Of a DNA stretch of 64,000 bases, positions 7,988 to 56,436 are shown piece after piece; the stretch's first letter is position 1; every line of letters begins with the position of its first letter. The notes under the pieces are model-generated. The model made no database searches. It had not been told where the DNA came from and was given only the letters and a program-made list of their open reading frames with translations. The position numbers and the translations under genes were made by a program. The stretch covers positions 32,992 to 96,991 of the forward strand of contig LCIE01000002.1 of assembly GCA_001000865.1 (NCBI GenBank). Direction: 5' to 3'. The DNA is from Candidatus Collierbacteria bacterium GW2011_GWC2_44_18. Its GTDB lineage: Bacteria > Patescibacteriota > Microgenomatia > UBA1400 > MFAQ01.

Positions 7988-8100
7988 TCGTCATTGCCTT
8001 TTGTAGGGGCGGACCCCCGCGTCCGCCCGCAAACCACCAATTGTCATTGCGAATCTCGGTACTCCGAGCCCTGCCTGCCGGCAGGCAGGTGTGGCAATCT
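7988..8100. repeat. composite repeat cluster: Family-A element, Family-B REP (8002-8030), second Family-A element with a CTGCCTGCCGGCAGGCAGG palindrome
   Basis: cgtcattgcc..gtaggggcggacccccgcgtccgcccgc..ttgtcattgcgaatctcggtactccgagccctgcctgccggcaggcaggtgtggcaatctc. Confidence 0.8.
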
Positions 8101-30498: not shown

Positions 30499-31047
30499 AT
30501 GAGCCGCATAGGACGCAAACCACTACATCTTCCTTCTACCGTCACCTTCGAAAAGACAGCCACTACCCTGAAATTTACCGGTCCTAAGGGCACTTTGGAG
30601 TCTGTTCTTCCTGAAGGTATTAAGCTCGAAGAAAAAGATGGAGTCTTAAAATTCACTCGTGAAAGCGATATTCCGGCAGTCAGAGCTCTTCATGGTTTGG
30701 CTCAGCGCTTGGCACAAAATGCCATCCTCGGGGTCACTGACGGTTTCTTCAAAGACTTACTCTTGATTGGAACAGGTTATCGTGTTGCCCCCCACGCCGA
30801 TGGCCTCTCACTTTCCGTTGGTTACTCTCACCCCGTCATCTTCAATAAAGTTCCTGGCGTTACCATCACTACGGAAGGTCAAGATAAAATCAAAGTCACC
30901 GGTATCGACAAACAGCTTGTCGGTCAAGTGGCCGCTAATATCAGAGCGGTCAGAAAGCCAGAACCGTACAAAGGTAAGGGTATCCGTTATGCCGACGAAG
31001 TCGTTCTCAAAAAACAAGGCAAGACTGCCACCAAAACCGCCGCCTAA
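30499..31047 (+). CDS. rplF: 50S ribosomal protein L6
   Basis: MSRIGRKPLHLPSTVTFEK motif. Confidence 0.93.
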   Translation: MSRIGRKPLHLPSTVTFEKTATTLKFTGPKGTLESVLPEGIKLEEKDGVLKFTRESDIPAVRALHGLAQRLAQNAILGVTDGFFKDLLLIGTGYRVAPHADGLSLSVGYSHPVIFNKVPGVTITTEGQDKIKVTGIDKQLVGQVAANIRAVRKPEPYKGKGIRYADEVVLKKQGKTATKTAA

Positions 31048-31053
31048 AAACAT

Positions 31054-31398
31054 ATGAACAAACACTTAACCAGTCAACAAATCAGAGCCGGCCGGATTCG
31101 CGCCAAGCTTCTTTCGGTCACCACGAGACCCCGCCTGACCGTCAACCGCTCAAACTCCCACATCTTTGCTCAAATTCTTGATCAAAGTGGTAAAGTGGTC
31201 GTGGCTTTTGGTTCACAAGCCCTCAAGAAGTTCAAAGGCAACAAAACCGAAATGGCTACCGAAGTCGGCAAAAAATTGGGTGAAATGGCTAAAGAAAAAA
31301 AGGTCTCCACTGTCGTCTTCGATCGTGGTTCCTACCGTTTCCACGGCCGTGTCAAAGCTTTAGCCGAAGCCGTCCGTGCCTCCGGTCTCAAATTCTAA
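31054..31398 (+). CDS. rplR: 50S ribosomal protein L18
   Basis: Sequence and gene order. Confidence 0.92.
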   Translation: MNKHLTSQQIRAGRIRAKLLSVTTRPRLTVNRSNSHIFAQILDQSGKVVVAFGSQALKKFKGNKTEMATEVGKKLGEMAKEKKVSTVVFDRGSYRFHGRVKALAEAVRASGLKF

Positions 31399-31404
31399 AC
31401 CCAC

Positions 31405-31450
31405 CGTCATTGCGCGATTCGGTACTCCGAACCAAAGCAATCCAGAAAAA
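31405..31450. repeat. Family-A palindromic element
   Basis: cgtcattgcgcgattcggtactccgaaccaaagcaatccagaaaaa. A near-identical copy lies inside miaA at 60663. Confidence 0.85.
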
Positions 31451-31484
31451 TATAAAATATAAAATATAAAATACAAAATAAAAA

Positions 31485-32003
31485 ATGGCATACTCAGGCA
31501 ACACCAATAATTCCAATCGAGGCGGCGGTCGTCCCGCACCCGAAGGTTTCGAGCAGGTTCTCGAAATTCGTCGTGTCAGCAAGAAGACACAGGGAGGCAC
31601 CAACGTCTCTTTTTCTGCACTCGTGGTTACCGGTGACAAAAAAGGTAAAGTCGGTCTTGGTTTAGCCAAAGCCCCAAACGTAGCCGATGCTATCAAAAAA
31701 GCTATCCGTCTCGGTAATCGCGATCTTGTTCAGGTTCCTTTGGTCGAAGGCACCATTCCTTACGAAACTATCTCCAAGTACGGTGCCGCCAAAGTTCTCT
31801 TCCGCCCGGCCCCCAAGGGTACCGGCCTCATCGCCGGCTCTTCTGTCCGCGCAGTGGTCGAAGCCGCCGGTATCACCGACATTGTTTGCAAGGTCATGGG
31901 TACCAACAACAAAACCAGCAACGCCAGGGCTACTTTCAAAGCCCTCAAACAAATCGAAGTTCTAGCCAAGAAATATCAAATGCTCAAGGCACTTAGAGCC
32001 TAA
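31485..32003 (+). CDS. rpsE: 30S ribosomal protein S5
   Basis: Sequence and gene order. Confidence 0.93.
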   Translation: MAYSGNTNNSNRGGGRPAPEGFEQVLEIRRVSKKTQGGTNVSFSALVVTGDKKGKVGLGLAKAPNVADAIKKAIRLGNRDLVQVPLVEGTIPYETISKYGAAKVLFRPAPKGTGLIAGSSVRAVVEAAGITDIVCKVMGTNNKTSNARATFKALKQIEVLAKKYQMLKALRA

Positions 32004-32008
32004 AGACT

Positions 32009-32455
32009 ATGTTTTTATCCAACCTCCCCAAACTCAGCAAAACTCCCAAAAAGCGTCTCGGTCGCGGCTTTGGTTCAGGCGTCGGTGGTCACACCGTCGG
32101 TCGTGGTCAAAAAGGTCAAAAAACTCGTGGCAAGATGCCTCTCTGGTTCGAAGGTGGTCAGTTACCTCTTATTCGCCGTACTCCTTTCATCAAGGGTAAG
32201 CACCGTTTCCAGGTTATCAAGCTTCAGCCCATTACGGTCAACTTTGACCGCCTGGACAAGTTCGACGCCAACTCCGTCATCGATCCCTTATTCCTAGCTA
32301 CGGCCCTAAAGGTGAGCGAAAAGGAAGCCAAACGTGGCTTCAAGATTATCGCCACCGGTAAGCTCACCAAAGCCCTCCAAATCGCCGTTCCCGCCTCCGC
32401 AGGGGCTATCAAAGCCATCGAAACCGCCGGCGGCAAATATCTCCCCACCAAATAA
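32009..32455 (+). CDS. rplO: 50S ribosomal protein L15 (follows rpsE with a 5-nt gap; no L30 gene)
   Basis: GRGFGSGVGGHTVGRGQKGQKTRG motif. Confidence 0.93.
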   Translation: MFLSNLPKLSKTPKKRLGRGFGSGVGGHTVGRGQKGQKTRGKMPLWFEGGQLPLIRRTPFIKGKHRFQVIKLQPITVNFDRLDKFDANSVIDPLFLATALKVSEKEAKRGFKIIATGKLTKALQIAVPASAGAIKAIETAGGKYLPTK

Positions 32456-32462
32456 ATCCCTC

Positions 32463-32491
32463 CCGTAGGGGCGGGCCCTCGCGCCCGCCCG
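32463..32491. repeat. Family-B REP-like palindrome
   Basis: ccgtaggggcgggccctcgcgcccgcccg. Confidence 0.75.
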
Positions 32492-32513
32492 AAATCATTG
32501 GAAAGCCCCTCTC

Positions 32514-32542
32514 TTGAAAATCACCCTATATTATAGTATAAT
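32514..32542 (+). promoter_or_regulatory. near-consensus sigma70 promoter TTGAAA-N17-TATAAT driving the inserted cassette
   Basis: ttgaaaatcaccctatattatagtataat. Confidence 0.6.
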
Positions 32543-32579
32543 GTCCGTCATATCCTAATTCACTTTGACAGTAGTATCG

Positions 32580-32972
32580 ATGAAGAAGTTACTCGACAGT
32601 TTCTGTGTACTGATTAAGCAAGCCATCGAAGCCGCCCAGGACCTCTGGTACGGCAAGGTTCAAGTAAAGGCCAGCCCGTTAATTGATGAAGATGTCGCTG
32701 TAGACGATGCCTTTTTCACGGTGGTTGATCGTGTTATTCTGGCCGTTGAAGAGGGTAATCTCAAACTTGACAGGTCAAAAGTGATCGATGATTGCCTGTT
32801 TTTACTATACGAATACGAAAACAAGGTTGAATTCATCGTTGTTGAACCATACGAAAAGCAAGTTTTTAATTCAACCGAACCCAACTTCACCAACTTACGG
32901 CCATCACTCGTCACAATCGAACTCAAGAGACGACTGACAGAAGTCATGAAACAATGGTTCGAAGGTATCTAA
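32580..32972 (+). CDS. hypothetical acidic protein P1 (130 aa), first gene of the rplO-secY inserted cassette
   Basis: ATG at 32580 in frame with ORF 32565..32972. Stop TAA overlaps the P2 start (TAATG). No recognisable domain. Confidence 0.55.
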   Translation: MKKLLDSFCVLIKQAIEAAQDLWYGKVQVKASPLIDEDVAVDDAFFTVVDRVILAVEEGNLKLDRSKVIDDCLFLLYEYENKVEFIVVEPYEKQVFNSTEPNFTNLRPSLVTIELKRRLTEVMKQWFEGI

Positions 32973-33331
32973 TGGAAGACCTAATTAGTTTCATCGGTGG
33001 ACAGGCTGTAGCCGAGAAATCTTCTCAATATGATTTTCTGGTCAAGTTTTTTAAACTCGTCTCGAGATGTATCAATGCCGGCGAGACCAAACTTCGCTTG
33101 GAACATTCAAAGATTAAAGATCGGGTCTTTTTCCTCAAAATGGCCGAAGGTGGATATCTGGCCATCAAGCCGGATGAGCTTAAGATCTTTGAAGCCGATG
33201 AAGATATGCAAATCCTTAAGAAGGATTTTGCACTTCCGTACGAAAATCTTATAGCTACTTACACCGAGCTTAGAGCACGATTAGTTTATCGTCTCGCAAC
33301 CACTAAACTAAGCAGACAACCGTTAGGGTAA
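32972..33331 (+). CDS. hypothetical protein P2 (119 aa), translationally coupled to P1
   Basis: ATG at 32972 overlapping the P1 stop. No recognisable domain. Confidence 0.55.
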   Translation: MEDLISFIGGQAVAEKSSQYDFLVKFFKLVSRCINAGETKLRLEHSKIKDRVFFLKMAEGGYLAIKPDELKIFEADEDMQILKKDFALPYENLIATYTELRARLVYRLATTKLSRQPLG

Positions 33332-33340
33332 AATCATTAA

Positions 33341-33372
33341 CCTATCCACCCACCCCTAACCGGGTGGTTTTT
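33341..33372 (+). terminator. intrinsic terminator after P2
   Basis: cccacccctaaccgggtggtttttt. Confidence 0.55.
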
Positions 33373-33392
33373 TGTGGCTTATACTTGAAGCA

Positions 33393-34289
33393 ATGGATTC
33401 GATCAAAAAGATTATCACCGAACTCTCTGTGTTTTCCCCTCGGCAAGGCGAAAATGAAATCAAGGCGGCCAAATATATCGAATCTTTTCTCAGTTCCCAT
33501 AACGTCGACTTTTCGGTACAAACATTTAAAACTGAGGTGTCTATCACCATAAGTGCAGAGTTATTTTTAGATGATCATCAAATTCCCTGTTTGGGTGGCT
33601 CTTTTGAGAGTGGAAAAATCACGTCCGCCTCTCAGGTTCATTTTAGTCCTTATTCTAATTATATTGAAACCATAAACTACCCCTCTGATCCCGGCGTTCA
33701 TATTTCTAGAGCCAACAAATCATTATTAGAAAAGGCGGTTAAAATTTCCGGTGAGGTTATGGTCGAAGAGTTTTTCTTCCTCTCAAAAAACATTTTAGTG
33801 GGGAACGCGGTAAACCCCGAAAAAATAGTTTTCGCTCATTACGATTCACTTGGCGGTGGGGCTCTCGATAACGCCGGCAGTGTCGCCATCTGTCTAAATC
33901 TCTTAACTGAGAACCGTGATTTGATATCTGAGAACTTATTCGTTTTTGTCGGTAATGAAGAACTTTCCTACGACTCCCCCGAATATTGGGGCAAGGGTTA
34001 TCGCGAGTTTGAAAAACAATATCTGGATTTACTGAACTTCGCTAAAGAAATAATTGTCGTCGATGGGGTTGGCGTCACCACACCACAGACAATCACTGAG
34101 AACATAGAGGACGCCTTTCCCGTTCGGAATCTCAGCACTCTCATTTCAAAAGTTACTTGGATTTCCAGCATCCAGTCCGAAGTCCTGAAATGCTACCACT
34201 GCCTAGAAGACACCCCAGACAAATTAAACCAGGTTTTTCTCAGCCAATCCCAATCAATGATTAAACAAAAACTTCTAAACTCAGTCTGA
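33393..34289 (+). CDS. M28-family peptidase-like protein (possibly inactive variant)
   Basis: FAHYDSLGGGALDNAGSVAI resembles the M28 HxD...GAxDDxSG metal-binding motifs, with DD replaced by DN. Alternative start at 33372. Confidence 0.5.
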   Translation: MDSIKKIITELSVFSPRQGENEIKAAKYIESFLSSHNVDFSVQTFKTEVSITISAELFLDDHQIPCLGGSFESGKITSASQVHFSPYSNYIETINYPSDPGVHISRANKSLLEKAVKISGEVMVEEFFFLSKNILVGNAVNPEKIVFAHYDSLGGGALDNAGSVAICLNLLTENRDLISENLFVFVGNEELSYDSPEYWGKGYREFEKQYLDLLNFAKEIIVVDGVGVTTPQTITENIEDAFPVRNLSTLISKVTWISSIQSEVLKCYHCLEDTPDKLNQVFLSQSQSMIKQKLLNSV

Positions 34290-34312
34290 GCTGGTAGAAT
34301 AGATCTCACGAT

Positions 34313-35593
34313 ATGAATAATATATTAGCTCCTTTGCGCGCCCTATTTAAGATAAAAGATCTTAGAAACAGATTGATTTTTACTGCTATTGTCATCGCCA
34401 TTTTCCGTTTGGTTGCCCACATCCCCGCGCCAGGGATCAACTTAGCCGCCCTCAAAGGACTCTTCGATTCATCTGCCTTTCTTTCTTTACTAGATGTCTT
34501 TTCCGGTGGCACTCTGACAAATTTTTCCGTCATGGCCCTTGGTCTCAATCCTTACATCAACGCCTCCATTATTATGCAGATGCTCGGCATGGTAGTTCCC
34601 AAGCTGGAAGAGCTTCAGAAGGAAGGCGACTACGGTCGCCAAAAAATCAATCAATACACTCGTCTTCTTACTATTCCACTTTGTTTCTTTCAGGGTATCG
34701 CTTTGATCATGCTTCTCCGGGGACAAGGACTTACTACTACTGCTGATCCGCTAAAGTTGGCTTCTATTGTTTTCACTCTTGCCGCCGGCACTTCTTTTTT
34801 AATCTGGCTCGGTGAACAATTAAATGAATACGGCGTTGGCAACGGTATTAGTTTAATAATCTTCGTTGGTATCGTCACTAGACTACCGGTCGCCGCCGCT
34901 CAAGTTCTTACCACTATCGATCCTTCCCAGATATTTACTTATTTAATCTTTGGTTTTTTTGCGGCCGCCTCTGTCTACGCTATCGTCCGAGTTGGGGAAG
35001 CCGTTCGGGAAGTTCCGATTCAATCAGCCAGACGCGGGGCTTCCTTCACTTCTGTCGTTGGCAATCACCTACCACTTCGTCTCAATCAGGCTGGCGTCAT
35101 CCCGATTATCTTTGCCGTTTCTTTCATGTTGATTCCTAACCTTTTAAGCCGTGTCTTTTCTGGTTCCAGCCAACCAGTTCTTGCTCAAATCTCCAGAAAT
35201 GTTGGGCTTTTCTTGGCACCTAATACGGTTCTTTATAATGTTCTTTATTTTGTCTTGGTTGTCGCTTTTTGTTATTTCTATACTGCAGTTGTTTTTAATC
35301 CGGAAAAAATTGCCAAAGATCTTCGCTCTTCCGGCTCCTTCATTCCCGGTGTTCGCCCGGGTCCCAACACAGTTGATTATCTCAACTTTGTTTTAAACAG
35401 AATTACTTTGGTAGGAGCCTCTTTCCTAGGTCTTGTCGCCATCTTCCCCTCCATTATTTCCGGAGTTACCGGCATCACCTCCATCGCCATAGGAGGAACG
35501 GGTATCTTAATTGTCGTTTCTGTTGTTTTGGAAATTCTTAAGACAATCAACTCTCAGCTCTACATGTACAGTTACGACAAATTTCTAGACTAA
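34313..35593 (+). CDS. secY: preprotein translocase subunit SecY
   Basis: 426 aa, 10 TM helices, spc-operon position. Confidence 0.93.
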
Positions 35594-35596
35594 TAA

Positions 35597-35631
35597 TTGT
35601 CATTGCGAGGAGTACTCGACGCGGCAATCTG
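35597..35631. repeat. Family-A palindromic element
   Basis: ttgtcattgcgaggagtactcgacgcggcaatctg. Confidence 0.8.
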
Positions 35632-35645
35632 TAAATATACACTAA

Positions 35646-36206
35646 ATGAACCTCATTATTCTCGGACCACAAGGCTCAGGCAAAGGTACTCAAGCCAAGT
35701 TACTTGCCGAAAAGTTCGGATATGTTCATGTGTCATCCGGATCTCGCCTTCGTGAATTCGCCAAGAACGGAACCCCCAAAGGAGATTTAATCGCTGATCT
35801 CCTAACTACGGGGGAACTCATGCCCTTTGATACGGTCATGGAAGTTATCGAGCCGGATCTTCTGGGTGCCAAGCACGGTTTTATCTTAGACGGTACCCCT
35901 AGAAACTTAATGCAAGCAGAGTATTTGGAATGGTTTCTAAAAGAGCGTGGTCTTTCCATAGATAAGGTAATCCTTCTAAACATTCCGCGAGAAGTCAGTC
36001 TTGACCGTTTGCAAAAACGCGCCAAAATCGAGAATCGTTCCGACGATACTCCGGAAGCCATTCACGCAAGATTGGACATTTATGACAACGAGACCATTCC
36101 TGTCATCGAATATTTTCGCAAACAGGACAAGCTAATCGAAGTCGACGGCACTCCCGATATCCAAACAATCTTTTTGGACATCGTCTCAAAGCTAGAAAAC
36201 AAATAG
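35646..36206 (+). CDS. adk: adenylate kinase (short, lid-less type)
   Basis: MNLIILGPQGSGKGTQA P-loop. 186 aa. Confidence 0.93.
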   Translation: MNLIILGPQGSGKGTQAKLLAEKFGYVHVSSGSRLREFAKNGTPKGDLIADLLTTGELMPFDTVMEVIEPDLLGAKHGFILDGTPRNLMQAEYLEWFLKERGLSIDKVILLNIPREVSLDRLQKRAKIENRSDDTPEAIHARLDIYDNETIPVIEYFRKQDKLIEVDGTPDIQTIFLDIVSKLENK

Positions 36207-36210
36207 TTCT

Positions 36211-36250
36211 CGTCATTCCGAACCAAAACCCTACCTGTCGGCAGGAATCC
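36211..36250. repeat. Family-A variant element (GTCATTCCGAACC...CTGTCGGCAGGAATCC)
   Basis: Intergenic after adk. Confidence 0.7.
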
Positions 36251-36324
36251 CCACGGCTGAGATTACAGAAAAGGAGTGTGATATAATACCCTATATAGTC
36301 TTGTAATTTGATAAAGGAGCTAAC

Positions 36325-36687
36325 ATGTTTTTACAGATTCTCTACGCGTCTGATCGTAAGGTTGAAGCTGAAGAGTTTTTAAAGAATCTTATTCAACGGT
36401 CATTTTCTTGTATGATGTTGGGGGAAGAAGATACCCCACCGTTGGGAATAAGCAAACCTGTAGTTTTGGTCCTCATTAGCCCAGGACTTCTGGGGAGCGA
36501 GTATCTGAAAGGACTGATGGATTTGGCAATTATGTGTGATTGCTTTATGCCTATTATCATCGGGCAGCCAGAAGCAGAACTACCGCTCAGGGTCAAGATC
36601 TATTCTGTAATTAACTTAAACCATCCCTACACTCGTGCCGCCGAGTTTGAGCGTCTCGTCCGGTCAATTATGCATAAGTACCTCTAA
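36325..36687 (+). CDS. TIR-like (flavodoxin-fold) small protein, paralog 1 (120 aa)
   Basis: ILYASDRKVEAEEFLKNL resembles the TIR N-terminal FISYSxxD...A..L motif, and VVLVLISPGLLGSEYLKGLMDLAI resembles the TIR vvVlSpnY.S.WC.El segment. RBS AAAGGAG. Own terminator. Confidence 0.45.
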   Translation: MFLQILYASDRKVEAEEFLKNLIQRSFSCMMLGEEDTPPLGISKPVVLVLISPGLLGSEYLKGLMDLAIMCDCFMPIIIGQPEAELPLRVKIYSVINLNHPYTRAAEFERLVRSIMHKYL

Positions 36688-37827: not shown

Positions 37828-37981
37828 TTTTCCTCCAGAACATAAATTTTACGTGCTTAGATAACCCATATATTAGCACAAACCCCTCATTTTGTCAAGA
37901 CTATGGGGTAGCGTTACGTCACAATTCAATTCCATTATGCTAAAATACCCCATATTCTGCTTTTTAAAATTGGAGGTATTC

Positions 37982-38452
37982 ATGGCCAGTCTTATTATTC
38001 TTCACGCAACGGATGCTTCCGACGAAGCTGAGGGGCTTCAAACGCAGTTGTCAGGAGAAGGTATTACTGCGATGACTTTTTCGGAGGTTTTGCTCGAAGG
38101 CCCACTCAATATTGCCGAGCTAGTCGCCTCTTCAGCCGGCGTCATTTTTATTTTGACAAATGGTTTACTGAACGACATGGTTTGTCTAACTATGGCCAAG
38201 CAAGCCATGAAAGCTCAAAAGGGCTTGCCTGTGATTTTCGAGGACATCACCACTCCTGCTTGGTCCGGTCGACCATTCAGGTTAATGCCCAGTGATATGT
38301 ACGAAGTTGAATGGGGTTTCTTCGTAACCCAAATCCGTAGCTACATCAGCTTCGCGGAACTGTGTCGTTCCATTGATGATTCCATGGTAACCGAAACCGC
38401 GGAAGAAGTTTTATCGGAAGAAGGGATCGAATCTGGACCCGAAGTAGTTTAA
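37982..38452 (+). CDS. TIR-like (flavodoxin-fold) small protein, paralog 2 (156 aa)
   Basis: GGAGG RBS. ILHATDASDEAEGLQTQL parallels paralog 1 (ILYASDRKVEAEEFLKNL). Own terminator. Confidence 0.45.
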   Translation: MASLIILHATDASDEAEGLQTQLSGEGITAMTFSEVLLEGPLNIAELVASSAGVIFILTNGLLNDMVCLTMAKQAMKAQKGLPVIFEDITTPAWSGRPFRLMPSDMYEVEWGFFVTQIRSYISFAELCRSIDDSMVTETAEEVLSEEGIESGPEVV

Positions 38453-42925: not shown

Positions 42926-43920
42926 ACAATAGACTTGTCGCAAAATAAGCAACATCACCTCCCCCTCCCCAGATATCAGGTTAACAAGTGTCTTTGGTAA
43001 TTGGTCGGGTAAAGTTGTAGAGGGCATATCTGTCGGCAAGAATATGGAAGTGTTTGAGTGCTCCAATGACATGTTCTACTCGTACTCTGATTGAGGATAT
43101 GGTTTGATTGGTTAGCTTGTCCATCTCAGGAAGTTCTTTCTTGTATGGTTTCTTGATTGGAAGAATCACCTTAGAGTGTGAACTTGATTCTTGTAGTCCT
43201 ACGTATCCTAAGTCAGCCAGACAAGTGGCTCCGGGCGGAGCCCGGAGAACTGTGCCATCATCCACGCACAACTGTTTGTCATGTCGTTTTCCCTCCACTG
43301 TTTGGGAGACAGCCAAAATTCTTTTGGTGTGTGGGTGGATGATGATTTGATTCTTGATCGTATGTTTCTTCTTTTTACCAGAGTAATAGAACTCTTGATT
43401 TTTCTTTGGTCTTTGTACTGCTCTCTCGGTGGCATCAATGATGAACTCAGAGAGATCAGGACAGATCTCGAGCATTCCCGCCATGGTACGGATCTTTCTT
43501 TTAGGTAGCCTAAGTTCATATCCTAGTGTTAACCAAAGCACTTCCTCCATAAATACCTTCCATCGATGGATAGTTTCCTTGTCTACCTCGAAGATTGTTT
43601 GAGCCAGGCGGAAAGTGGGATATGTTTTGTAGTAAAACAAGATGAAGAGTAATCTCTCTGAAGAAGTTCGGAGTACCGACCTTCTTCCTGCTCCCATTCC
43701 TCTGTCTCTGTCCCATCTCCACAGTTTGTGGTGTCGACTCTGTCGAAATCGAATATCAAAAAGTGGTAACAGTTTGTTAAACTTTTCCTGACTCATTCCA
43801 ATTACCGCTGGAAAAAGATCAGGATGTTTGAGAAGATAGAGTAGATTCATGGGCAGGAACTTACTAATATGGGGTCCTGCCCATAATCTTATCAGAGCTA
43901 ATTATGCGACAAGTCTAATA
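42926..43920 (-). mobile_element. IS5-family insertion sequence (~1.0 kb) with terminal inverted repeats
   Basis: Left end aatagacttgtcgcaaaat (42928-42942). Right end reverse complement attagacttgtcgcataat (43905-43917). A single DDE transposase ORF fills the interior. Confidence 0.7.
42981..43850 (-). CDS. IS5/IS4-superfamily DDE transposase (289 aa)
   Basis: N-terminal HTH region. KKKHTIKNQIII and DLGYVG motifs are typical of DDE_Tnp_1-type transposases. Confidence 0.75.
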   Translation of the reverse strand: MNLLYLLKHPDLFPAVIGMSQEKFNKLLPLFDIRFRQSRHHKLWRWDRDRGMGAGRRSVLRTSSERLLFILFYYKTYPTFRLAQTIFEVDKETIHRWKVFMEEVLWLTLGYELRLPKRKIRTMAGMLEICPDLSEFIIDATERAVQRPKKNQEFYYSGKKKKHTIKNQIIIHPHTKRILAVSQTVEGKRHDKQLCVDDGTVLRAPPGATCLADLGYVGLQESSSHSKVILPIKKPYKKELPEMDKLTNQTISSIRVRVEHVIGALKHFHILADRYALYNFTRPITKDTC

Positions 43921-46271: not shown

Positions 46272-49200
46272 TTGACATCTCCTTACCCTGTAATTAAACT
46301 AAAATCATCGATGGGAAAAATAAAAACCTTCTTAGGTTCTTTGCGTCCTTGGCAGTTGGTCGGAATCTTGCTGGTTTCCTTAGGACTGCTCGCTTCCGTT
46401 ATTCTTGCTTCGCAATACCTTCAGCTCTCAGCCAAACTAAAGCTAGGCTCAGACGCCGGGCTGTTGTTGACGGCGGATCGACAAGACTCGTTAGGGACGT
46501 TTCAGGATTCAACTTTCACTCTCAAGTCGGATCAAGATCTTACCGTCGCCGGTCTCAAGAATAGTGTGACTTTCTTTCCCGAAATAGACTTCGACATTAG
46601 GGAAATCAGCCCTCGTCAATTTAGTATTTCCCCCAAGGCTCCTCTAAAGAACAACAGTCTGTATCGCGTCAAGGTAGTTTCCGACCAAAAAACTTTTTCC
46701 TGGGCATTCCAGACCAAAAACGATTTCCGGGTAGTCCAAACCCTACCTCGTGATCAAGCCACCTACGTACCCATAAATTCTGGTATCGAGATCACCTTTA
46801 GTCACGATAATTGGGATGACATAAGTTTGAAAGATGGAAATTTTGAAATTACCCCTTTTGCCGAAGGTCGTTTCGAACGTCACAAAAGAACTATTTCCTT
46901 TATTCCAGAGGGACTTGTTCCAAATACACTATATACGGTAAAAATCAAAAAAGGTCTTAAACTCAAAGGAACCAATGAAGTTCTCAAAGATGATTTTGTT
47001 TATCGTTTTGAAACCCAGTCTTCTTCCGGAGATAAGACTCAAATAAATTTTTCCAGAAGTTTTTATGAATTTTCTCCACCCGAAACTCCGGCTTTCGATA
47101 TCTACACTTCATCGACCGGCGTGGGCGAGGCCTCGGTAAAGGTTTATCAATACCCCAATGTTCAAGATTTTACTTCCGACTTTACTACCAAGCTGGCTAT
47201 TCCGGCGTGGGCGACCAATTCACTTCGCTTAAATCGTCGTCCGGTTTCGGGGCTAAACAAAGTTCTGGATTTTCCGGCATCAATTCAAAAACAATCATAC
47301 ACCAATTATTTCTTACTTCCTCAAACTTTACCCAAAGGTTTTTACCTGATTGAAGCCACGATCGATAATATCACCACCCAAGCTTTGGTTCAAATAACCG
47401 ACCTCTCCGCCTATCTCACCGTCAGCGGTACCAAGACACTCGTTTGGGTCAACGATATTGGTACTGGCCAGCCTGTTTCTGGTGCAAGTGTCAGTTTCGC
47501 CGGCAAAGGACAAGAAACCGGTCAGGATGGTGTCGCTTACTTTGATACTCCGACCGAAAAGATAACAGAAAATTCCAATCTTATTGGAGTTAGTCATGGC
47601 AGTAATGCTCTATATTTACCTGTTCAAAATGTTAGGTACTACTACGATGCTGATTATCAAAATTCCCGTCGCGTGGCCGATAAATACTGGAACTATTTTT
47701 ACACCGATCGTCCGGTCTACCTACCCACTGACATTCTCAAGTTCTGGGGTTTACTTAGGGATCGGGACAATCTAAATCAAAATCAAAAATTCACCTTAGA
47801 AGTTACTCGGTCAGATTACACCAGCTGGGACTTCCATCCGATGGTGCTTTTTACCAAAGATTTCGAAACCAGTGATCTGGGAACTTTTATTGGCGACATT
47901 CCTTTGGCGAGCTACAATCCGGGCTGGTATGGTATCTCCCTTAAGATCAATGGCACTATCGTCTCCAGTTCTTCGTTTTCGATTGAAACTTACACCAAGC
48001 CAGCCTACAAACTTACCCTCACTCCTTCCAAAAAAGCCGCTATTGTCGGTGAAATAATCTCTTTTTCCGGTGAAGCTACCTTCTTCGAAGGCTCCCCAGT
48101 CGTGGGGATGGATTTAAAGGTTACCGGGGCTCAAAATAGTAATTTCACCACTGATTCTCTCGGTCGATTTAATTTCAATTACCTGGTCTCGAAAAATTCC
48201 TACAACTATTTACCGGAGTATCGAAATTTTGTTGTCCTTCCCACCCTTCCCGAGGAGGGTATGATTCAAGTGAATTCCTCTATTGCCGTTTTTGATTCAT
48301 CACTAGTCTTGGGTTATTCAAAAACTGAGTCAAAAAATTCCACTGGAAAGGTTGAGATCGATCTTCGTCAGGTTGATACCGGAAAATTTACTCAGTCTTC
48401 AGACATACAAGACATTTTTGCTCCGGCTTCAAACCGGCTGGTTACTGGCACCTTAGTGGAAAATCAATGGAATCGACGGGAAGTTGGTACCTATTACGAT
48501 TTTATTAACAAGGTAACCTCTCCCAAATATGCATACGATCGAGTTCAAACCAAAATTGCCGACATCTCTTTAACCACCGACTCAAAAGGGAAGGCGGTCT
48601 ACGAATTTCCTGTTGGAGAAAACAAGTCATACGACATTCTCTTATATGCCACTGACGATCAAGGAAGAACTACCAGCCAAAACGTTTATCTTACCGGCTC
48701 GGTCAACAATGCCGAGTTGAATAACTATGTTTATTTAAAAACCGACAAGGAGGGTCAAAATTCCAGCCGATATGCTATTGGCGAGTCAGTAAACCTCACC
48801 CTTATGCGAGGAGAATTACCTCTGGAGTCCTCCGGAAACGATAAATTTCTTTATTTATTTTCTCAAAGGGGCCTTAATTCGTATCAGTTAGCCAGCGATG
48901 GGAAAATAAGTTTCAAATATCCCACAGCCTTTGTACCCAATGTCTTTGTTCGGGCGGTGAGATTTACCGGGAAAACTTATCAAGTATCGGAAAATCTTTA
49001 TCTATACTTTGATACCACCTCCAAAAAACTTTCCCTGGGGATTACTCAAGATAAACCCTCATACCTTCCGGGAGATACCGCCAAACTTTCCGTACTGGTA
49101 AAAGATCAAACCGGATCCGGCGTCTCTTCAGAGGTCAATCTCAGTCTTACAGATGAAGCATACAACGCTTTAAATTCCACTTTTGTGGATCCGTTATCTG

Positions 49201-51530
49201 GAATCTATCGTTCCTTGGGCGACGATATTATTGCTTCATACCAATCTCATCAATATCCTCTGGATAGTTCCGGGGCTGAAGGTGGTGGTTGTTTCTTGGC
49301 GGGTACACAGATATTGATGGAAGACGGAAAAACAAAAGAAATTCAGGATATAAAGGTGGGAGATATAGTCAAGTCATTTCTAAGTCCTCTGTCGAGGAAA
49401 ATAGCAACTGCCAAAGTTTCCAAAGTTTTCACGCATCAGGTAGTAGGTTATTTGGTAATTAACAATCACCTAAGAGTCACCGGAGAACACAATTTATATA
49501 TCAATGGTCGGTTCATGACCGCCTCTGAGGTAAAAGTTGGGGATTTCTATCTTGATACTCATGGGGAGTACCAAAAGATATTCTCCATCGAAAGTCGATC
49601 TGGAATAAATACGGTCTACAATTTCACGGTAGAAAAATTAAACACATACTTCGCCGAAGGATTTTATGTCCACAACGAGAAGGGTCGCGAATTATTCGTG
49701 GACAATGCTTTTTTCAGCAGTGTCCGTACCGGTAGTGATGGCCGTGCCAGCGTTGATGTTAAGCTTCCGGATAATCTTACCTCTTGGAAAATTACCTCCC
49801 AAGGAGTTACTGCCGATCTGAAAGCAGGTGTCGACTCTTCTCTTCTGGTTGTTAAACAACCCTTCTTCGTAGATGTAGTCATGAACACTGAGTATCTGGT
49901 TGGCGAACGACCGGAAGTTTCGGTTCGTGCCTATGGTGAAGGACTATCCACTGGGGACCAAGTAATCCTAAAAATTCAATCTGATACTTTAGGAATAGAT
50001 AAAAGTCTTAACATAAAAGCCTTTGAAAGTTCTAAAGTGGATCTTGGTGTCCTCAAAGAAGGCTCCCACAAAATTACCATTTCGGGTATTTCCGGTAGTC
50101 TTACGGATAAGTTAATCAGAAAAATGAATGTAGTCAAGTCTCGCCTCAAAGCAGTCAAATCGGTCAGTGTTTCTTTGGCAGAAGGTACCAAGCCGGAAGG
50201 TTCGCCAGATTCGTCAACGACCTTAATCTTTTCCGACCAAAGCCTCGGTCGTTATTTCCCACCCCTTTCAAACCTGGCTTACACTTGGGGGGATCGCTCA
50301 GATCAGCGTCTAGCCCGCCATCTTTCGCAGTCTATCATCAAGAAGCTTTTCGACGATTCTATCAGTCCGGAAACACTCGACCTCACCGCCTTTCAAACTC
50401 CGGATGGTGGTTATGCACTCTTTCCCTACTCTGGAGCAGACCTGGAGCTCTCTGCCTTCGTAGCGTCCTTGGCAAAAGAAAAGGTTGATCTCATTGGTTT
50501 GGGAAACTATTTTTACAAAGAATTTTCCCAATCAAAAGACCTCGACACTGCCTCCATGTCGCTTTTTGGACTGGCAAGTTTAGACGAACCGGTACTACTA
50601 TTAATAAACAATCTTTCGGGCGAAAAAGATCTCAGCCCCTTGTCCAGAATCTACTTGGCTTTGGCTCAAGCCAAGATCGGGGATACCGAAATGGCCCGCA
50701 TTTTCTACAAGACTCTCATGTCGGAGTTTTCCGAAAAACAAGATTCATTAATCTTGATGAAAGTCGGATCAGACAAAGATAGTTATCTCCAGGCCACTTC
50801 ACTTACTTCTGCTCTTTCCTCCTTGTTGGGTGAGCCGGAAGCTGACAGTCTGCTTTCTTACACCCTGGCTAATAGCGCGAAAGACATCTTACTAGTTGCT
50901 CCTCAGATGATGGCCATTTCCTATCAGATCGAAAATATTAAACCCCAACCGGTCTCTTTTTCATACACTCTAAATGGCAAAAAGATACCCAAAAAACTTG
51001 AAAAGGGTCAAGTTTTCAAGCTTGAGTTATCGTCCACTGATCTATCCGGAATAAGTTTTTCCGATCTTGTTGGCAATGTCGGTTTGTCTTCAACTTTCGC
51101 GGTTCCTCTGGATCCAAAAACTGCCCCCATAAGTTCGTCGGTTCAGTTAGGTCGGAGTTACTCTGTTCGTGGTGCTATCACCAACACTTTCTCCACCAGC
51201 GATCTTGTCAAAATTTCACTTCCAGTTGCCTATGCGGATATCTCTCAAGACGGTTGTTACCAAGTCTCGGATCTACTTCCTTCGGGGTTGAGACCGATCA
51301 CTTCGATTTATAGTTTCGGGCTGGATTCCACAAAGACTTGGTATCCATACGAGATAAATGGCCAAAAGGTTAGTTTCTGTGTAGGAAATGGAAGTAAAGA
51401 AAAAACCATCAACTACTATGCGAGGGTCGTCTCCGGTGGCGACTTCAAAGCCGAAAGTGCCTTGATTCAATCCTTAATTTCACCTTCAGTCTTCAACCTT
51501 TCTCCCTCCGGCTCGGTCATTATCAAATGA
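46272..51530 (+). CDS. alpha-2-macroglobulin-family surface protein (1752 aa), thioester-less, with a Hint/BIL domain in place of the bait region
   Basis: N-terminal signal-anchor helix and repeated MG-type beta-sandwich domains (e.g. LVQITDLSAYLTVSGTKTLVWVNDIGTGQPVSGASV). The post-bait A2M block FVDNAFFSSVRTGSDGRASVDVKLPDNLTSWKI...LVVKQPFFVDVVMNTEYLVGE aligns with human A2M [32 protein letters not shown]...[21 protein letters not shown] (recalled from memory). No CxEQ thioester at the expected position (LAYTWGDRSDQ instead). Confidence 0.7.
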   Translation: MTSPYPVIKLKSSMGKIKTFLGSLRPWQLVGILLVSLGLLASVILASQYLQLSAKLKLGSDAGLLLTADRQDSLGTFQDSTFTLKSDQDLTVAGLKNSVTFFPEIDFDIREISPRQFSISPKAPLKNNSLYRVKVVSDQKTFSWAFQTKNDFRVVQTLPRDQATYVPINSGIEITFSHDNWDDISLKDGNFEITPFAEGRFERHKRTISFIPEGLVPNTLYTVKIKKGLKLKGTNEVLKDDFVYRFETQSSSGDKTQINFSRSFYEFSPPETPAFDIYTSSTGVGEASVKVYQYPNVQDFTSDFTTKLAIPAWATNSLRLNRRPVSGLNKVLDFPASIQKQSYTNYFLLPQTLPKGFYLIEATIDNITTQALVQITDLSAYLTVSGTKTLVWVNDIGTGQPVSGASVSFAGKGQETGQDGVAYFDTPTEKITENSNLIGVSHGSNALYLPVQNVRYYYDADYQNSRRVADKYWNYFYTDRPVYLPTDILKFWGLLRDRDNLNQNQKFTLEVTRSDYTSWDFHPMVLFTKDFETSDLGTFIGDIPLASYNPGWYGISLKINGTIVSSSSFSIETYTKPAYKLTLTPSKKAAIVGEIISFSGEATFFEGSPVVGMDLKVTGAQNSNFTTDSLGRFNFNYLVSKNSYNYLPEYRNFVVLPTLPEEGMIQVNSSIAVFDSSLVLGYSKTESKNSTGKVEIDLRQVDTGKFTQSSDIQDIFAPASNRLVTGTLVENQWNRREVGTYYDFINKVTSPKYAYDRVQTKIADISLTTDSKGKAVYEFPVGENKSYDILLYATDDQGRTTSQNVYLTGSVNNAELNNYVYLKTDKEGQNSSRYAIGESVNLTLMRGELPLESSGNDKFLYLFSQRGLNSYQLASDGKISFKYPTAFVPNVFVRAVRFTGKTYQVSENLYLYFDTTSKKLSLGITQDKPSYLPGDTAKLSVLVKDQTGSGVSSEVNLSLTDEAYNALNSTFVDPLSGIYRSLGDDIIASYQSHQYPLDSSGAEGGGCFLAGTQILMEDGKTKEIQDIKVGDIVKSFLSPLSRKIATAKVSKVFTHQVVGYLVINNHLRVTGEHNLYINGRFMTASEVKVGDFYLDTHGEYQKIFSIESRSGINTVYNFTVEKLNTYFAEGFYVHNEKGRELFVDNAFFSSVRTGSDGRASVDVKLPDNLTSWKITSQGVTADLKAGVDSSLLVVKQPFFVDVVMNTEYLVGERPEVSVRAYGEGLSTGDQVILKIQSDTLGIDKSLNIKAFESSKVDLGVLKEGSHKITISGISGSLTDKLIRKMNVVKSRLKAVKSVSVSLAEGTKPEGSPDSSTTLIFSDQSLGRYFPPLSNLAYTWGDRSDQRLARHLSQSIIKKLFDDSISPETLDLTAFQTPDGGYALFPYSGADLELSAFVASLAKEKVDLIGLGNYFYKEFSQSKDLDTASMSLFGLASLDEPVLLLINNLSGEKDLSPLSRIYLALAQAKIGDTEMARIFYKTLMSEFSEKQDSLILMKVGSDKDSYLQATSLTSALSSLLGEPEADSLLSYTLANSAKDILLVAPQMMAISYQIENIKPQPVSFSYTLNGKKIPKKLEKGQVFKLELSSTDLSGISFSDLVGNVGLSSTFAVPLDPKTAPISSSVQLGRSYSVRGAITNTFSTSDLVKISLPVAYADISQDGCYQVSDLLPSGLRPITSIYSFGLDSTKTWYPYEINGQKVSFCVGNGSKEKTINYYARVVSGGDFKAESALIQSLISPSVFNLSPSGSVIIK
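49290..49676 (+). other. Hint (bacterial intein-like, BIL-type) domain embedded in the A2M-family protein
   Basis: Begins GGG-CFLAGTQILMEDGK (block A). Has the TxxH block B (RVTGEHNL). Ends NTVYNFTVEKLNTYFAEGFYVHN (blocks F/G). The residue after the terminal Asn is Glu, not Cys/Ser/Thr. About 129 aa with no homing endonuclease. Confidence 0.75.
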
Positions 51531-56410: not shown

Positions 56411-56436
56411 AGGCCTGCCTGCCGGCAGGCAGGTTT
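56411..56436. repeat. CTGCCTGCCGGCAGGCAGG palindrome (Family-A core module)
   Basis: aggcctgcctgccggcaggcaggttt. The same palindrome occurs at 8071-8090 and 51581-51598. Confidence 0.7.

What the first reader, a model, noticed from the sequence alone, without database searches (positions are those of the whole stretch)
32456..34312. Autonomous accessory cassette splitting the highly conserved rplO-secY junction
Within the spc operon, rplO and secY are normally adjacent across bacteria. Here 1.85 kb is inserted. It contains a REP-like element, a near-consensus promoter (TTGAAA-N17-TATAAT), two small unknown genes with TAATG stop/start overlap (130 and 119 aa), an intrinsic terminator, and then an M28-peptidase-like gene with a degenerate metal site (DD replaced by DN). 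The tight 2-gene promoter-terminator unit resembles a toxin-antitoxin or small defence/addiction module, but neither protein matches a family I recognise.
Basis: partly seen in the sequence, partly recalled or inferred. Interest (0 to 1): 0.65.

Follow-up and report, generated by a model that had tools for sequence, protein, structure and literature searches.

The report
Variable gene slot between rplO and secY
In this Collierbacteria genome the normally tight rplO-secY junction holds three real accessory genes, and every sampled relative has this same junction filled with different small self-expressed genes, so it is a lineage-wide exchangeable gene slot rather than a one-off toxin-antitoxin insertion.

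Summary
The sequence observation is confirmed almost completely. A 1,857-bp spacer separates rplO from secY. It holds a REP-like hairpin, an 11/12 sigma-70-type promoter, two overlapping small genes (130 and 119 aa), an intrinsic terminator and an M28 peptidase gene.

- **P1 and P2 are not toxin-antitoxin-like.** They are distant paralogues, one about 105-aa domain each. Relatives encode the same two domain types as one fused protein of about 237 aa, so a P1-P2 heterodimer is likely. The fold is predicted confidently and matches no solved structure. The family has only 43 representatives among 1.84 billion proteins.
- **The M28 metal site is intact.** The "DN" motif is the same as in active B. 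subtilis YwaD.

The larger result is about the locus. All 26 Collierbacteria loci that carry both genes have 0.55-6.3 kb here, with different, mostly unrelated genes. Other CPR genomes have a median gap of 0 bp.

The genes form promoter-gene-terminator units bounded by a stereotyped hairpin (CCACCC...GGGTGG-Tn) and reusable promoter/leader modules. Low synonymous divergence of P2 and P3 relative to their flanks indicates lateral exchange of single cassettes.

The biochemical function of P1/P2 remains unknown.

The parts
32009..32455 (+). rplO (ribosomal protein L15), the upstream conserved flank of the slot
   Evidence: Pfam Ribosomal_L27A, E=3.8e-9. Relatives are 68-97% identical.
32468..32490 (+). 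REP-like GC-rich hairpin (8-bp stem, 6-nt loop) with no T-run. It is probably an mRNA 3'-end stabiliser or barrier for the rplO transcript.
   Evidence: Four copies occur in the window where 0 are expected, with compensatory stem changes. The fold is -19.7 kcal/mol. The element is absent from the relatives' loci.
32514..32579 (+). Portable promoter plus leader module: -35 TTGAAA at 32514-32519, -10 TATAAT at 32537-32542, and an unstructured leader of about 30 nt that contains TATCCTAATTCACTTTGACAG.
   Evidence: The promoter matches 11 of 12 consensus positions. The same module sits upstream of four different genes in the rplO-secY slots of four other Collierbacteria genomes. The leader is unstructured.
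32580..32972 (+). P1, 130 aa, pI 4.7. It is a single-domain, C-type member of the new domain family and carries an N-terminal helix that corresponds to the inter-domain linker of the fused proteins.
   Evidence: Family HMM, E about 1e-23 to 1e-28. The C-type HMM scores 36.4 bits against 21.5 for the N-type HMM. The only sequence-search hit is the protein itself.
32972..33331 (+). P2, 119 aa, pI 8.6. It is a single-domain, N-type member of the same family. Its start overlaps the P1 stop (TAATG), and GAAGG lies 8 nt upstream.
   Evidence: Family HMM, E=2.5e-39. The N-type HMM scores 81.5 bits against 39.3 for the C-type HMM. The AlphaFold2 model has pLDDT 85.8 and pTM 0.75. One orthologue is 81% identical, with dN/dS 0.28.
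33350..33373 (+). Stereotyped cassette-end hairpin and intrinsic terminator: CCACCC-CTAACC-GGGTGG followed by TTTTTT.
   Evidence: It is conserved in L001 and L017, with a pairing-preserving A-to-G change. The same motif occurs 27 times in the relatives' slots, once elsewhere in those loci and only once in this window.
33393..34289 (+). P3, 298 aa, pI 4.8. It is a cytoplasmic M28-family metallopeptidase with a complete ligand set and no PA domain or signal peptide.
   Evidence: Pfam PF04389 above its cut-off. Eight orthologues keep H149, D151, D159, E189, E190, D224 and H269 invariant. A profile search hits PDB 2ek8 and YwaD 6hc6 with the motifs aligned. dN/dS is 0.11.
34292..34300 (+). Conserved TGGTAGAAT, which resembles an extended -10, ending 12 nt before the secY ATG. 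It may be a promoter for secY. This is inference only.
   Evidence: Read from the sequence. Nucleotide similarity to five relatives (L013, L014, L019, L020, L022) resumes at 34288-34292, just before it. Related TGTAAAAT motifs follow the last hairpin before secY in other loci.
34313..35593 (+). secY, the downstream conserved flank of the slot
   Evidence: Pfam SecY, E=8e-100.

Best explanation
The rplO-secY spacer is this genome's version of a variable accessory-gene slot that the whole Collierbacteria lineage keeps at this one junction.

**How the slot is built.** In this lineage the spc operon is interrupted after rplO, and small expression units accumulate there. Each unit is a promoter/leader, one or two genes, and a stereotyped CCACCC...GGGTGG-Tn terminator hairpin. 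Units turn over by duplication, loss and lateral exchange. The exchange is most plausibly homologous recombination that uses the very conserved rplO and secY flanks and the shared junction elements.

**What this genome carries.**
- A REP-like hairpin follows rplO.
- A bicistronic P1-P2 unit has its own near-consensus promoter and terminator.
- P3 is an M28 metallopeptidase with an intact metal site. It sits directly upstream of secY and is probably transcribed with it by terminator read-through, or from weak local promoters.

**What P1 and P2 are.** They are the C-type and N-type versions of one domain of about 105 aa (beta-hairpin, long helix, four-strand beta-meander, long helix). Relatives encode the two types as one fused protein. 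P1 and P2 are therefore predicted to be made in equal amounts by translational coupling and to form a heterodimer equivalent to the fused protein. The family has no conserved catalytic-type residues and diverges fast. It is most likely a non-enzymatic binding or adaptor module whose partner varies between strains.

**Shown:** the anatomy, the paralogy and fusion, the lineage-wide occupancy, the shared boundary elements, the intact M28 motifs and the mosaic synonymous divergence.

**Inferred:** the heterodimer, the recombination mechanism, the transcription pattern and any cellular role.
For: **Occupancy.** The gap exceeds 300 bp in 26 of 26 Collierbacteria loci (552-6318 bp, median 2124). Every junction I measured between adjacent ribosomal-protein genes in those loci stays below 300 bp, and only 1 of 20 other CPR loci has a large rplO-secY gap.

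**Variable content.** The slots hold 107 ORFs, nearly all co-directional with the operon. They fall into 14 small clusters plus 44 singletons. Profile-profile comparison links only c13 to the P1/P2 cluster.

**Cassette structure.**
- Terminator-like sites occur at 1.15 per kb in the slots against 0.06 per kb in the upstream ribosomal-protein block.
- The stereotyped hairpin occurs 27 times inside the slots and once outside them. It follows genes of at least 9 different clusters, plus singletons, in most cases 8-26 nt after the stop codon.
- P1's promoter/leader recurs upstream of four different genes in four other genomes.

**Exchange.**
- P2 against L016 has pS 0.29, and P3 against L017 has pS 0.30. 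Adjacent core genes have pS 0.5-0.8.
- The high-identity block shared with L016 (88.8%) covers P2 from its start codon almost to its stop (32972-33292) and nothing beyond it.

**P1/P2.**
- Two-domain relatives match the family HMM in each half at E=1e-28 to 1e-37.
- N/C typing assigns P1 to the C-type and P2 to the N-type.
- The AlphaFold2 models are confident, with pLDDT 85.8 and 84.4 and pTM 0.75 and 0.79.
- An exhaustive HMMER search finds only 43 representatives, in single-, double- and triple-domain forms. One relative has about 6-7 domain copies in the same slot.

**P3.**

**Real genes.** dN/dS is 0.28 for P2 and 0.11 for P3.
Against: - No expression data exist, so the promoter, the terminator and the proposed secY -10 are consensus matches only.
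- The heterodimer was not modelled as a complex. It rests on the fused homologues and on the high pTM of the fused model.
- Gene order here is C-type then N-type, the reverse of the fused proteins.
- The hairpin regular expression was written after I had seen the slot terminators. The exact 22-mer also occurs in 11 unrelated metagenome contexts, against 9 in Collierbacteria slots. The motif is therefore a simple terminator that also arises elsewhere, not a unique signature.
- The low pS values rest on short genes (119 and 298 codons).
- At least one family member lies outside the slot, after a Ser/Thr kinase gene.
- Most relatives are MAG contigs, so some assemblies may be chimeric.
Confidence: 0.68

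Rival explanations
1. P1-P2 is a type II toxin-antitoxin or addiction module. One protein poisons the cell and the other neutralises it and represses the promoter.
For: P1 and P2 are two small, co-directional genes with a 1-nt stop/start overlap, their own strong promoter and their own terminator. Their distribution is patchy. The pI values are opposite, at 4.7 and 8.6.
Against: - The two proteins are paralogues of one domain, and relatives fuse them into one chain. Toxin and antitoxin pairs are unrelated folds and are not normally fused.
- Pfam, NCBIfam, PADLOC and PHROGs return nothing.
- Some relatives carry a single copy, and one carries 6-7 copies.
Confidence: 0.05
2. The slot is an array of immunity-like or anti-phage/anti-toxin binding proteins. 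P1/P2 and the other small soluble proteins would each neutralise a variable foreign effector, which would explain the tandem paralogues, the rapid divergence and the lateral exchange.
For: - Small, mostly soluble and acidic proteins: median pI 5.9, and 12 of 89 have a TM-like segment.
- Tandem paralogue expansion of up to 6-7 domains.
- Fused and split variants.
- Cassette exchange.
- No catalytic residues conserved.
Against: - No toxin, effector or known defence gene lies next to the slot in any locus inspected.
- PADLOC returns nothing.
- There is no similarity to known immunity folds.
- The slot also holds enzymes and metal-binding proteins: M28 and a DUF2284-like protein.
Confidence: 0.15
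3. The slot genes are lineage-specific housekeeping factors for the ribosome or the Sec translocon, placed here so that they are expressed with rplO and secY.
For: The position lies inside the ribosomal/sec gene cluster. The genes are co-directional, and every Collierbacteria genome sampled has the slot occupied. P3 is an aminopeptidase close to map and secY.
Against: - Content is not conserved, even between genomes whose SecY is 93-96% identical.
- The proteins are acidic or neutral, not basic like ribosomal proteins.
- The units carry their own promoters and terminators, which uncouples them from the operon.
- P1 has no orthologue anywhere.
Confidence: 0.08
4. The slot is a dedicated site-specific cassette system analogous to an integron. 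The stereotyped hairpins would be recombination sites recognised by a recombinase encoded elsewhere in the genome.
For: A conserved hairpin sits at cassette ends after unrelated genes. The similarity block shared with L016 covers P2 from its start codon almost to its stop and nothing outside it. Cassette order and number vary.
Against: - No recombinase was seen in any slot among the ORFs I scanned. The only transposase in the window is an IS5-type gene 9 kb away.
- The hairpin is a textbook intrinsic terminator, with a 6-bp stem and a T-run, and it lacks attC-type core sites.
- The cassettes carry their own promoters.
- The exact motif also occurs in unrelated organisms.
Confidence: 0.08

Closest known systems
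Flexible genomic islets or hot spots between conserved core genes (replacement islands)
   Same: The position is fixed between two highly conserved genes. Gene content differs between close relatives. There are signs of lateral exchange with mosaic divergence.
   Different: The slot sits inside the ribosomal spc/sec cluster, at a junction that is tight in other CPR bacteria. It has no tRNA, integrase or direct repeats. It is built from very small expression units with shared terminator and promoter junction elements.
Integron gene-cassette arrays (CALIN-type arrays without an integrase)
   Same: Small, mostly unknown, co-directional genes form a tandem array. Each gene is followed by a conserved imperfect hairpin, and the arrays vary between strains.
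   Different: There is no integrase. The hairpin is an intrinsic terminator of 18 nt plus a T-run, not an attC site of 57-141 nt with a GTTRRRY core. The cassettes carry their own promoters. The hairpin motif is not exclusive to this locus.
Type II toxin-antitoxin operons
   Same: Two small overlapping genes sit in one promoter-to-terminator unit and have a patchy distribution.
   Different: The two products are paralogous and are fused in relatives. They have no DNA-binding or toxin domain and match no TA or defence model.
M28 aminopeptidases (B. subtilis YwaD, PDB 6hc6; Aneurinibacillus aminopeptidase, PDB 2ek8)
   Same: P3 shares the HxD, GAxDNxSG, xEE and YHxxxDTxD motifs, and it matches Pfam PF04389 above the cut-off.
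   Different: P3 is shorter at 298 aa. It has no signal peptide or PA domain, has a lineage-specific segment of about 85 aa after the N-terminal helix, and is very divergent (phmmer against the PDB finds nothing). It is known so far only in Collierbacteria slots.
REP (repetitive extragenic palindromic) elements
   Same: The element is a short GC-rich palindrome that recurs in the genome with compensatory stem changes, and here it lies just 3' of a gene.
   Different: Only 4 copies occur in 64 kb, all on one strand. One copy lies in frame inside an ORF. No RAYT transposase was examined. The element is specific to this strain.

Membership tests
Type II toxin-antitoxin module | Two small adjacent co-transcribed genes, often overlapping | tested here: met
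   TAATG overlap, one promoter and one terminator.
Type II toxin-antitoxin module | The antitoxin has a DNA-binding domain and the toxin belongs to a recognised toxin superfamily | tested here: not met
Type II toxin-antitoxin module | The two components are structurally distinct proteins | tested here: not met
   P1 and P2 both match one domain HMM, at E about 1e-28 and 1e-39. Relatives carry the two domains in one polypeptide.
Type II toxin-antitoxin module | One protein is toxic and the other neutralises it | not testable with these tools
   This needs expression experiments.
Peptidase family M28 | Significant match to the family profile | tested here: met
   PF04389 scores 26.4 bits against a 21.3-bit cut-off, E=6.9e-6, but only over residues 145-199. 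The orthologue profile hits PDB 2ek8 at E=1.8e-4 and YwaD 6hc6 at E=8.6e-3.
Peptidase family M28 | Co-catalytic metal ligands His, Asp (bridging), Glu, Asp, His, plus a catalytic Glu | tested here: met
   H149 (AHYD), D159 (xDNAG), E189-E190 (NEE) and H269 (YHCxED) align with the corresponding motifs of 2ek8 and YwaD and are invariant in 8 orthologues. D224 (VDGVG) is invariant, but I assigned it by motif position only because it lies outside the aligned stretches.
Peptidase family M28 | Aminopeptidase activity | not testable with these tools
   This needs an enzyme assay.
Integron / attC cassette array | IntI tyrosine recombinase with an adjacent attI site and Pc promoter | tested here: not met
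   No recombinase domain appears among the slot ORFs I scanned or in the window genes I scanned. Not every ORF of every locus was scanned.
Integron / attC cassette array | attC sites: 57-141-nt imperfect palindromes with RYYYAAC and GTTRRRY cores, and promoterless cassettes | tested here: not met
   The boundary element is a 6-bp-stem hairpin plus a T-run. The cassettes have their own promoter/leader modules.
Intrinsic (Rho-independent) terminator | GC-rich stem-loop directly followed by a T-run, downstream of a stop codon | tested here: met
   The hairpin at 33350-33373 starts 19 nt after the P2 stop and folds at -13.6 kcal/mol with z=-2.4. Termination itself was not measured.
REP-like element | Short GC-rich imperfect palindrome repeated at several, mostly extragenic, sites | tested here: met
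   Four copies occur where 0 are expected, and the stems covary. Three copies are intergenic and one lies inside an ORF.
Known anti-phage defence systems (PADLOC) | Match of any component to a defence-system model | tested here: not met
   No hit for P1, P2 or P3 at E<=1.
Core-gene-flanked genomic hot spot | The same flanking core genes in all relatives, with different gene content between them | tested here: met
   26 of 26 loci are occupied. The ORFs form 14 clusters plus 44 singletons.

The most novel reading that the evidence does not exclude
Collierbacteria maintain an integrase-independent gene-cassette slot inside the most conserved gene cluster of the genome. Self-expressed mini-cassettes (promoter/leader, gene, stereotyped terminator hairpin) would be swapped between diverged lineages. 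The swap would use the near-invariant rplO and secY flanks and the shared junction elements as recombination handles. The P1/P2 family would be a new-fold, dimer-forming recognition module that diversifies there, for example for immunity against phage or competitor effectors, or for host interaction in an episymbiotic lifestyle.
Probability: 0.2. Interest if true: 0.8.

Novelty: new variant of a known kind. Interest (0 to 1): 0.6.

Why it matters
Ribosomal-protein and secY clusters are treated as the most syntenic and least recombining part of bacterial genomes, and they are the backbone of CPR phylogenomics and binning. A lineage in which one junction of that cluster is always occupied by fast-turning-over, laterally exchanged mini-cassettes matters in three ways.

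- **A place to look for accessory functions.** It marks where strain-specific accessory functions of an uncultured, host-dependent group are likely to be found.
- **A caution for marker-gene methods.** It warns that concatenated-marker contigs can carry mosaic DNA.
- **A compact natural example of insulated expression units.** The units reuse promoter/leader and terminator parts.

It also defines a small new protein domain family with a confidently predicted fold and no solved-structure match. Its split and fused forms make a direct, testable prediction of a heterodimer.

Tried and rejected
- **Direct BLASTP of P1 against P2** was not significant (E=2.3). The paralogy appeared only through the two-domain relatives and HMMs.
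- **Family libraries.** Pfam, NCBIfam, PADLOC and PHROGs gave nothing for P1 or P2.
- **Word-indexed homology searches** found only the proteins themselves plus one orthologue. The profile version found only 7 proteins, all from Collierbacteria slots that I had already retrieved.
- **PDB sequence profile of the family.** It gave only summed weak hits of a 22-residue beta-hairpin to designed 'Cake' propellers and a PQQ-repeat protein. No stretch was significant on its own, so I treat it as motif resemblance, not homology.
- **Rfam.** No family matched in 31000-36500.
- **Mobile-element reading.** I found no integrase or flanking direct repeats in the slot, and I did not run a tRNA scan. GC content is only slightly lower than in the flanks, 0.41-0.43 against 0.47-0.52.
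- **One diverged paralogue family.** I tested whether all slot gene clusters are diverged copies of one family. hhalign links only c13 to the P1/P2 cluster.
- **Hairpin exclusivity.** I tested whether the stereotyped hairpin is exclusive to the slot. It is not: 11 of 20 exact 22-mer hits in metagenomes lie in unrelated contexts.
- **Viral contigs.** The scan with the family alignment could not run because no stretch was conserved enough.
- **Literature.** Searches found no description of this hot spot.
Full report
**1. What is in the sequence**

The window comes from Candidatus Collierbacteria bacterium GW2011_GWC2_44 (CPR, Microgenomates). Sequence sources name P1 and P2 as UW41_C0002G0072 and UW41_C0002G0073.

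- rplO ends at 32455 and secY starts at 34313, so the spacer is 1,857 bp.
- A GC-rich hairpin lies at 32468-32490 (-19.7 kcal/mol). It has three further copies in the window with covarying stems, where 0 are expected by chance. 'REP-like' is therefore a fair description.
- TTGAAA-N17-TATAAT lies at 32514-32542 and matches 11 of 12 positions. The window has only four sites this good, against 1.8 in shuffles, and three of them lie just upstream of gene starts.
- P1 (32580-32972, 130 aa) and P2 (32972-33331, 119 aa) overlap by TAATG.
- A canonical hairpin plus T6 lies at 33350-33373.
- P3 (33393-34289, 298 aa) matches Pfam Peptidase_M28 above the gathering cut-off.
- The ATG starts of P1 and P3 are supported by conservation of the upstream non-coding sequence in relatives.

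**2. The M28 gene is not degenerate**

Eight orthologues (52-89% identity) keep H149, D151, D159-N160, E189-E190, D224, H269 and D273 invariant. A profile built from them hits two solved M28 aminopeptidases. The alignments are:

| P3 profile motif | PDB match |
|---|---|
| AHYDSL..GGGAvDNAGS | YwaD AHYDSVpfSPGANDNGSG; 2ek8 SHHDSVekAPGANDDASG |
| GNEE | GAEE |
| YHCLEDTvDKL | YHTPNDTLDKI |

The first Asp of the motif is the bridging ligand, which I state from established knowledge of the M28 family.

P3 has dN/dS of 0.11 against its L001 orthologue and has no signal peptide. I file it as a divergent but intact cytoplasmic M28 peptidase.

**3. P1 and P2 are two halves of one kind of protein**

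Searches with P1 or P2 alone found almost nothing. P1 found only itself, and P2 found one orthologue at 81% identity. Direct BLASTP of P1 against P2 was not significant.

Comparison with genes at the same position in relatives gave the link. L013, L015, L020 and L021 each encode one protein of 226-240 aa there, and both of its halves match both P1 and P2. An HMM of the roughly 105-aa unit scores each half at E=1e-28 to 1e-37, P2 at 2.5e-39 and P1 at 2e-28.

Separate HMMs of the N-terminal and C-terminal halves assign the two window proteins clearly:

| Protein | N-type HMM (bits) | C-type HMM (bits) | Assignment |
|---|---|---|---|
| P1 | 21.5 | 36.4 | C-type |
| P2 | 81.5 | 39.3 | N-type |

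The window therefore encodes, as two translationally coupled genes, the same two domain types that relatives fuse. The gene order here is the reverse of the domain order in the fused proteins. L001/L016 has two separate single-domain genes. L093 has about 6-7 domain copies in the same slot.

An exhaustive HMMER scan of 1.84 billion representatives finds only 43 members at E<=1e-3, with one, two or (once) three domains. All sequences that carry a source name are from Collierbacteria.

The AlphaFold2 models are confident:
- P2 has pLDDT 85.8 and pTM 0.75. Its topology is beta-hairpin, 20-residue helix, beta-meander, 24-residue helix.
- The fused P0004 has pLDDT 84.4 and pTM 0.79.

I infer that P1 and P2 form a heterodimer equivalent to the fused protein and act as a non-enzymatic binding module. 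The toxin-antitoxin reading requires two different folds, one of which normally binds DNA. It is contradicted by the paralogy and the fusion, and by the absence of any TA or defence model hit.

**4. The junction is a lineage-wide variable slot**

A secY-anchored scan of one genome per species returned 31 Collierbacteria-type loci (SecY identity 63% or more, at least 75% for all but one) and 49 other CPR loci.

| Junction | Collierbacteria loci | Other CPR loci |
|---|---|---|
| rplO-secY | >300 bp in 26 of 26 (552-6318 bp, median 2124) | median 0 bp; 1 of 20 >300 bp |
| Between adjacent ribosomal-protein genes | none >300 bp | not relevant here |
| map-infA | 19 of 28 >300 bp | - |
| secY-adk | 8 of 31 >300 bp | - |
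| adk-map | 3 of 28 >300 bp | - |

The last three rows are weaker secondary slots.

The 107 slot ORFs are almost all co-directional with the operon. They fall into 14 small clusters plus 44 singletons. Most are soluble and acidic or neutral. Pfam recognises only the M28 protein and a DUF2284-like protein of about 170 aa. The DUF2284-like protein is the commonest occupant, found in 11 loci and usually next to secY.

Profile-profile comparison shows that the clusters are not all diverged copies of one family.

**5. The slot is built from small expression units with shared boundary parts**

- Terminator-like sites occur at 1.15 per kb in the slots against 0.06 per kb in the upstream ribosomal-protein block.
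- Many are one stereotyped sequence, CC[AG][CT][CT]C-N4-8-G[GA][GA][TC]GG-Tn. It occurs 27 times in the slots, once in the rest of the same loci, once in the whole 64-kb window (the P2 terminator) and twice in 804 kb of other CPR loci.
- It follows genes of at least 9 different clusters, plus singletons, in most cases 8-26 nt after the stop codon. Recurrent -10/leader motifs follow it.
- P1's promoter/leader is itself a reusable part. It is found upstream of four different genes in four other genomes' slots and nowhere else in the window.

There are two caveats. The regular expression was written after I had seen these terminators. The exact 22-mer also occurs in 11 unrelated metagenome contexts, against 9 in Collierbacteria slots. 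The hairpin is a simple terminator that is strongly concentrated here, not a unique signature.

**6. Exchange**

Synonymous differences between the window and its closest relatives are near saturation for core genes (pS 0.5-0.8). P2 against L016 has pS 0.29, and P3 against L017 has pS 0.30, while the neighbouring secY has 0.63.

The high-identity block shared with L016 (88.8%) covers P2 from its start codon almost to its stop (32972-33292). It is flanked by unrelated sequence on the left.

P3 identity ranks relatives differently from SecY identity. L017 leads for P3 (89%) over L016 (76%) and L013 (72%). L013 leads for SecY (96%) over L016 and L017 (93% each).

Together these results indicate lateral exchange of individual cassettes. 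I infer homologous recombination through the conserved flanks and junction elements. I did not show it.

**7. Verdict**

The 'autonomous accessory cassette' description is broadly right. The toxin-antitoxin/defence interpretation and the 'degenerate peptidase' reading are not supported.

What is new is a lineage-wide cassette slot at rplO-secY, with reusable promoter and terminator parts, and a small dimer-type domain family with no known structural relative. No description of either was found in the searchable literature. The function of P1/P2 remains inferred.

Noticed in passing
window 36325-36687 and 37979-38452: Two more small accessory ORFs interrupt the adk-map and map-infA junctions. 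They resemble each other weakly (E=0.005). The second has faint TIR-domain signals: Pfam TIR_2 at E=0.09 and the TRAM TIR domain in the PDB at E about 0.1. In relatives, map-infA is a second variable junction, with 19 of 28 gaps above 300 bp and sizes up to 7.9 kb.
   Followed up: partly
window 52838-52860: One copy of the REP-like palindrome lies in frame inside the PGA_cap/Memo fusion ORF (51527-53341). There it encodes ...GADPRVRPTNDPRV....
   Followed up: partly
window 8070-8089, 51579-51598, 56414-56433: A second perfect 20-nt palindrome, CCTGCCTGCCGGCAGGCAGG, occurs three times in the window.
   Followed up: no
window 46272-51530: A 1,752-aa alpha-2-macroglobulin-like protein (Big_5, MG2, A2M_BRD and A2M domains) carries a HINT/intein-like insert at residues ~1007-1135.
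   Followed up: no
window 42981-43850 (-): An IS5-type DDE transposase (DDE_Tnp_4 with HTH_Tnp_4) lies shortly after the end of the ribosomal gene cluster.
   Followed up: no
window 32003-32009: rpsE is followed directly by rplO, with no rpmD (L30) between them. This fits the known loss of L30 in CPR bacteria.
   Followed up: no
L093 2389-5366: One related contig packs about 6-7 copies of the P1/P2 domain, as single- and double-domain genes, into a single rplO-secY slot.
   Followed up: partly
L061 3891-10001: One non-Collierbacteria Patescibacteria genome (S145_42) independently has a 6.1-kb rplO-secY insertion that holds three paralogous genes of 214-246 aa.
   Followed up: no
L096 873-3650: A divergent P1/P2-family member (P0031, 106 aa) sits outside any ribosomal context. 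It lies directly after a 679-aa Ser/Thr protein kinase gene and before another ORF that runs off the contig end (at least 101 aa).
   Followed up: partly
L001 6370-7458: The closest relative with a P2 orthologue carries two extra units in the slot: a 234-aa unknown protein and a 79-aa double-zinc-ribbon-like protein. A terminator-then-promoter junction separates the two units, and the second gene has its own promoter.
   Followed up: partly
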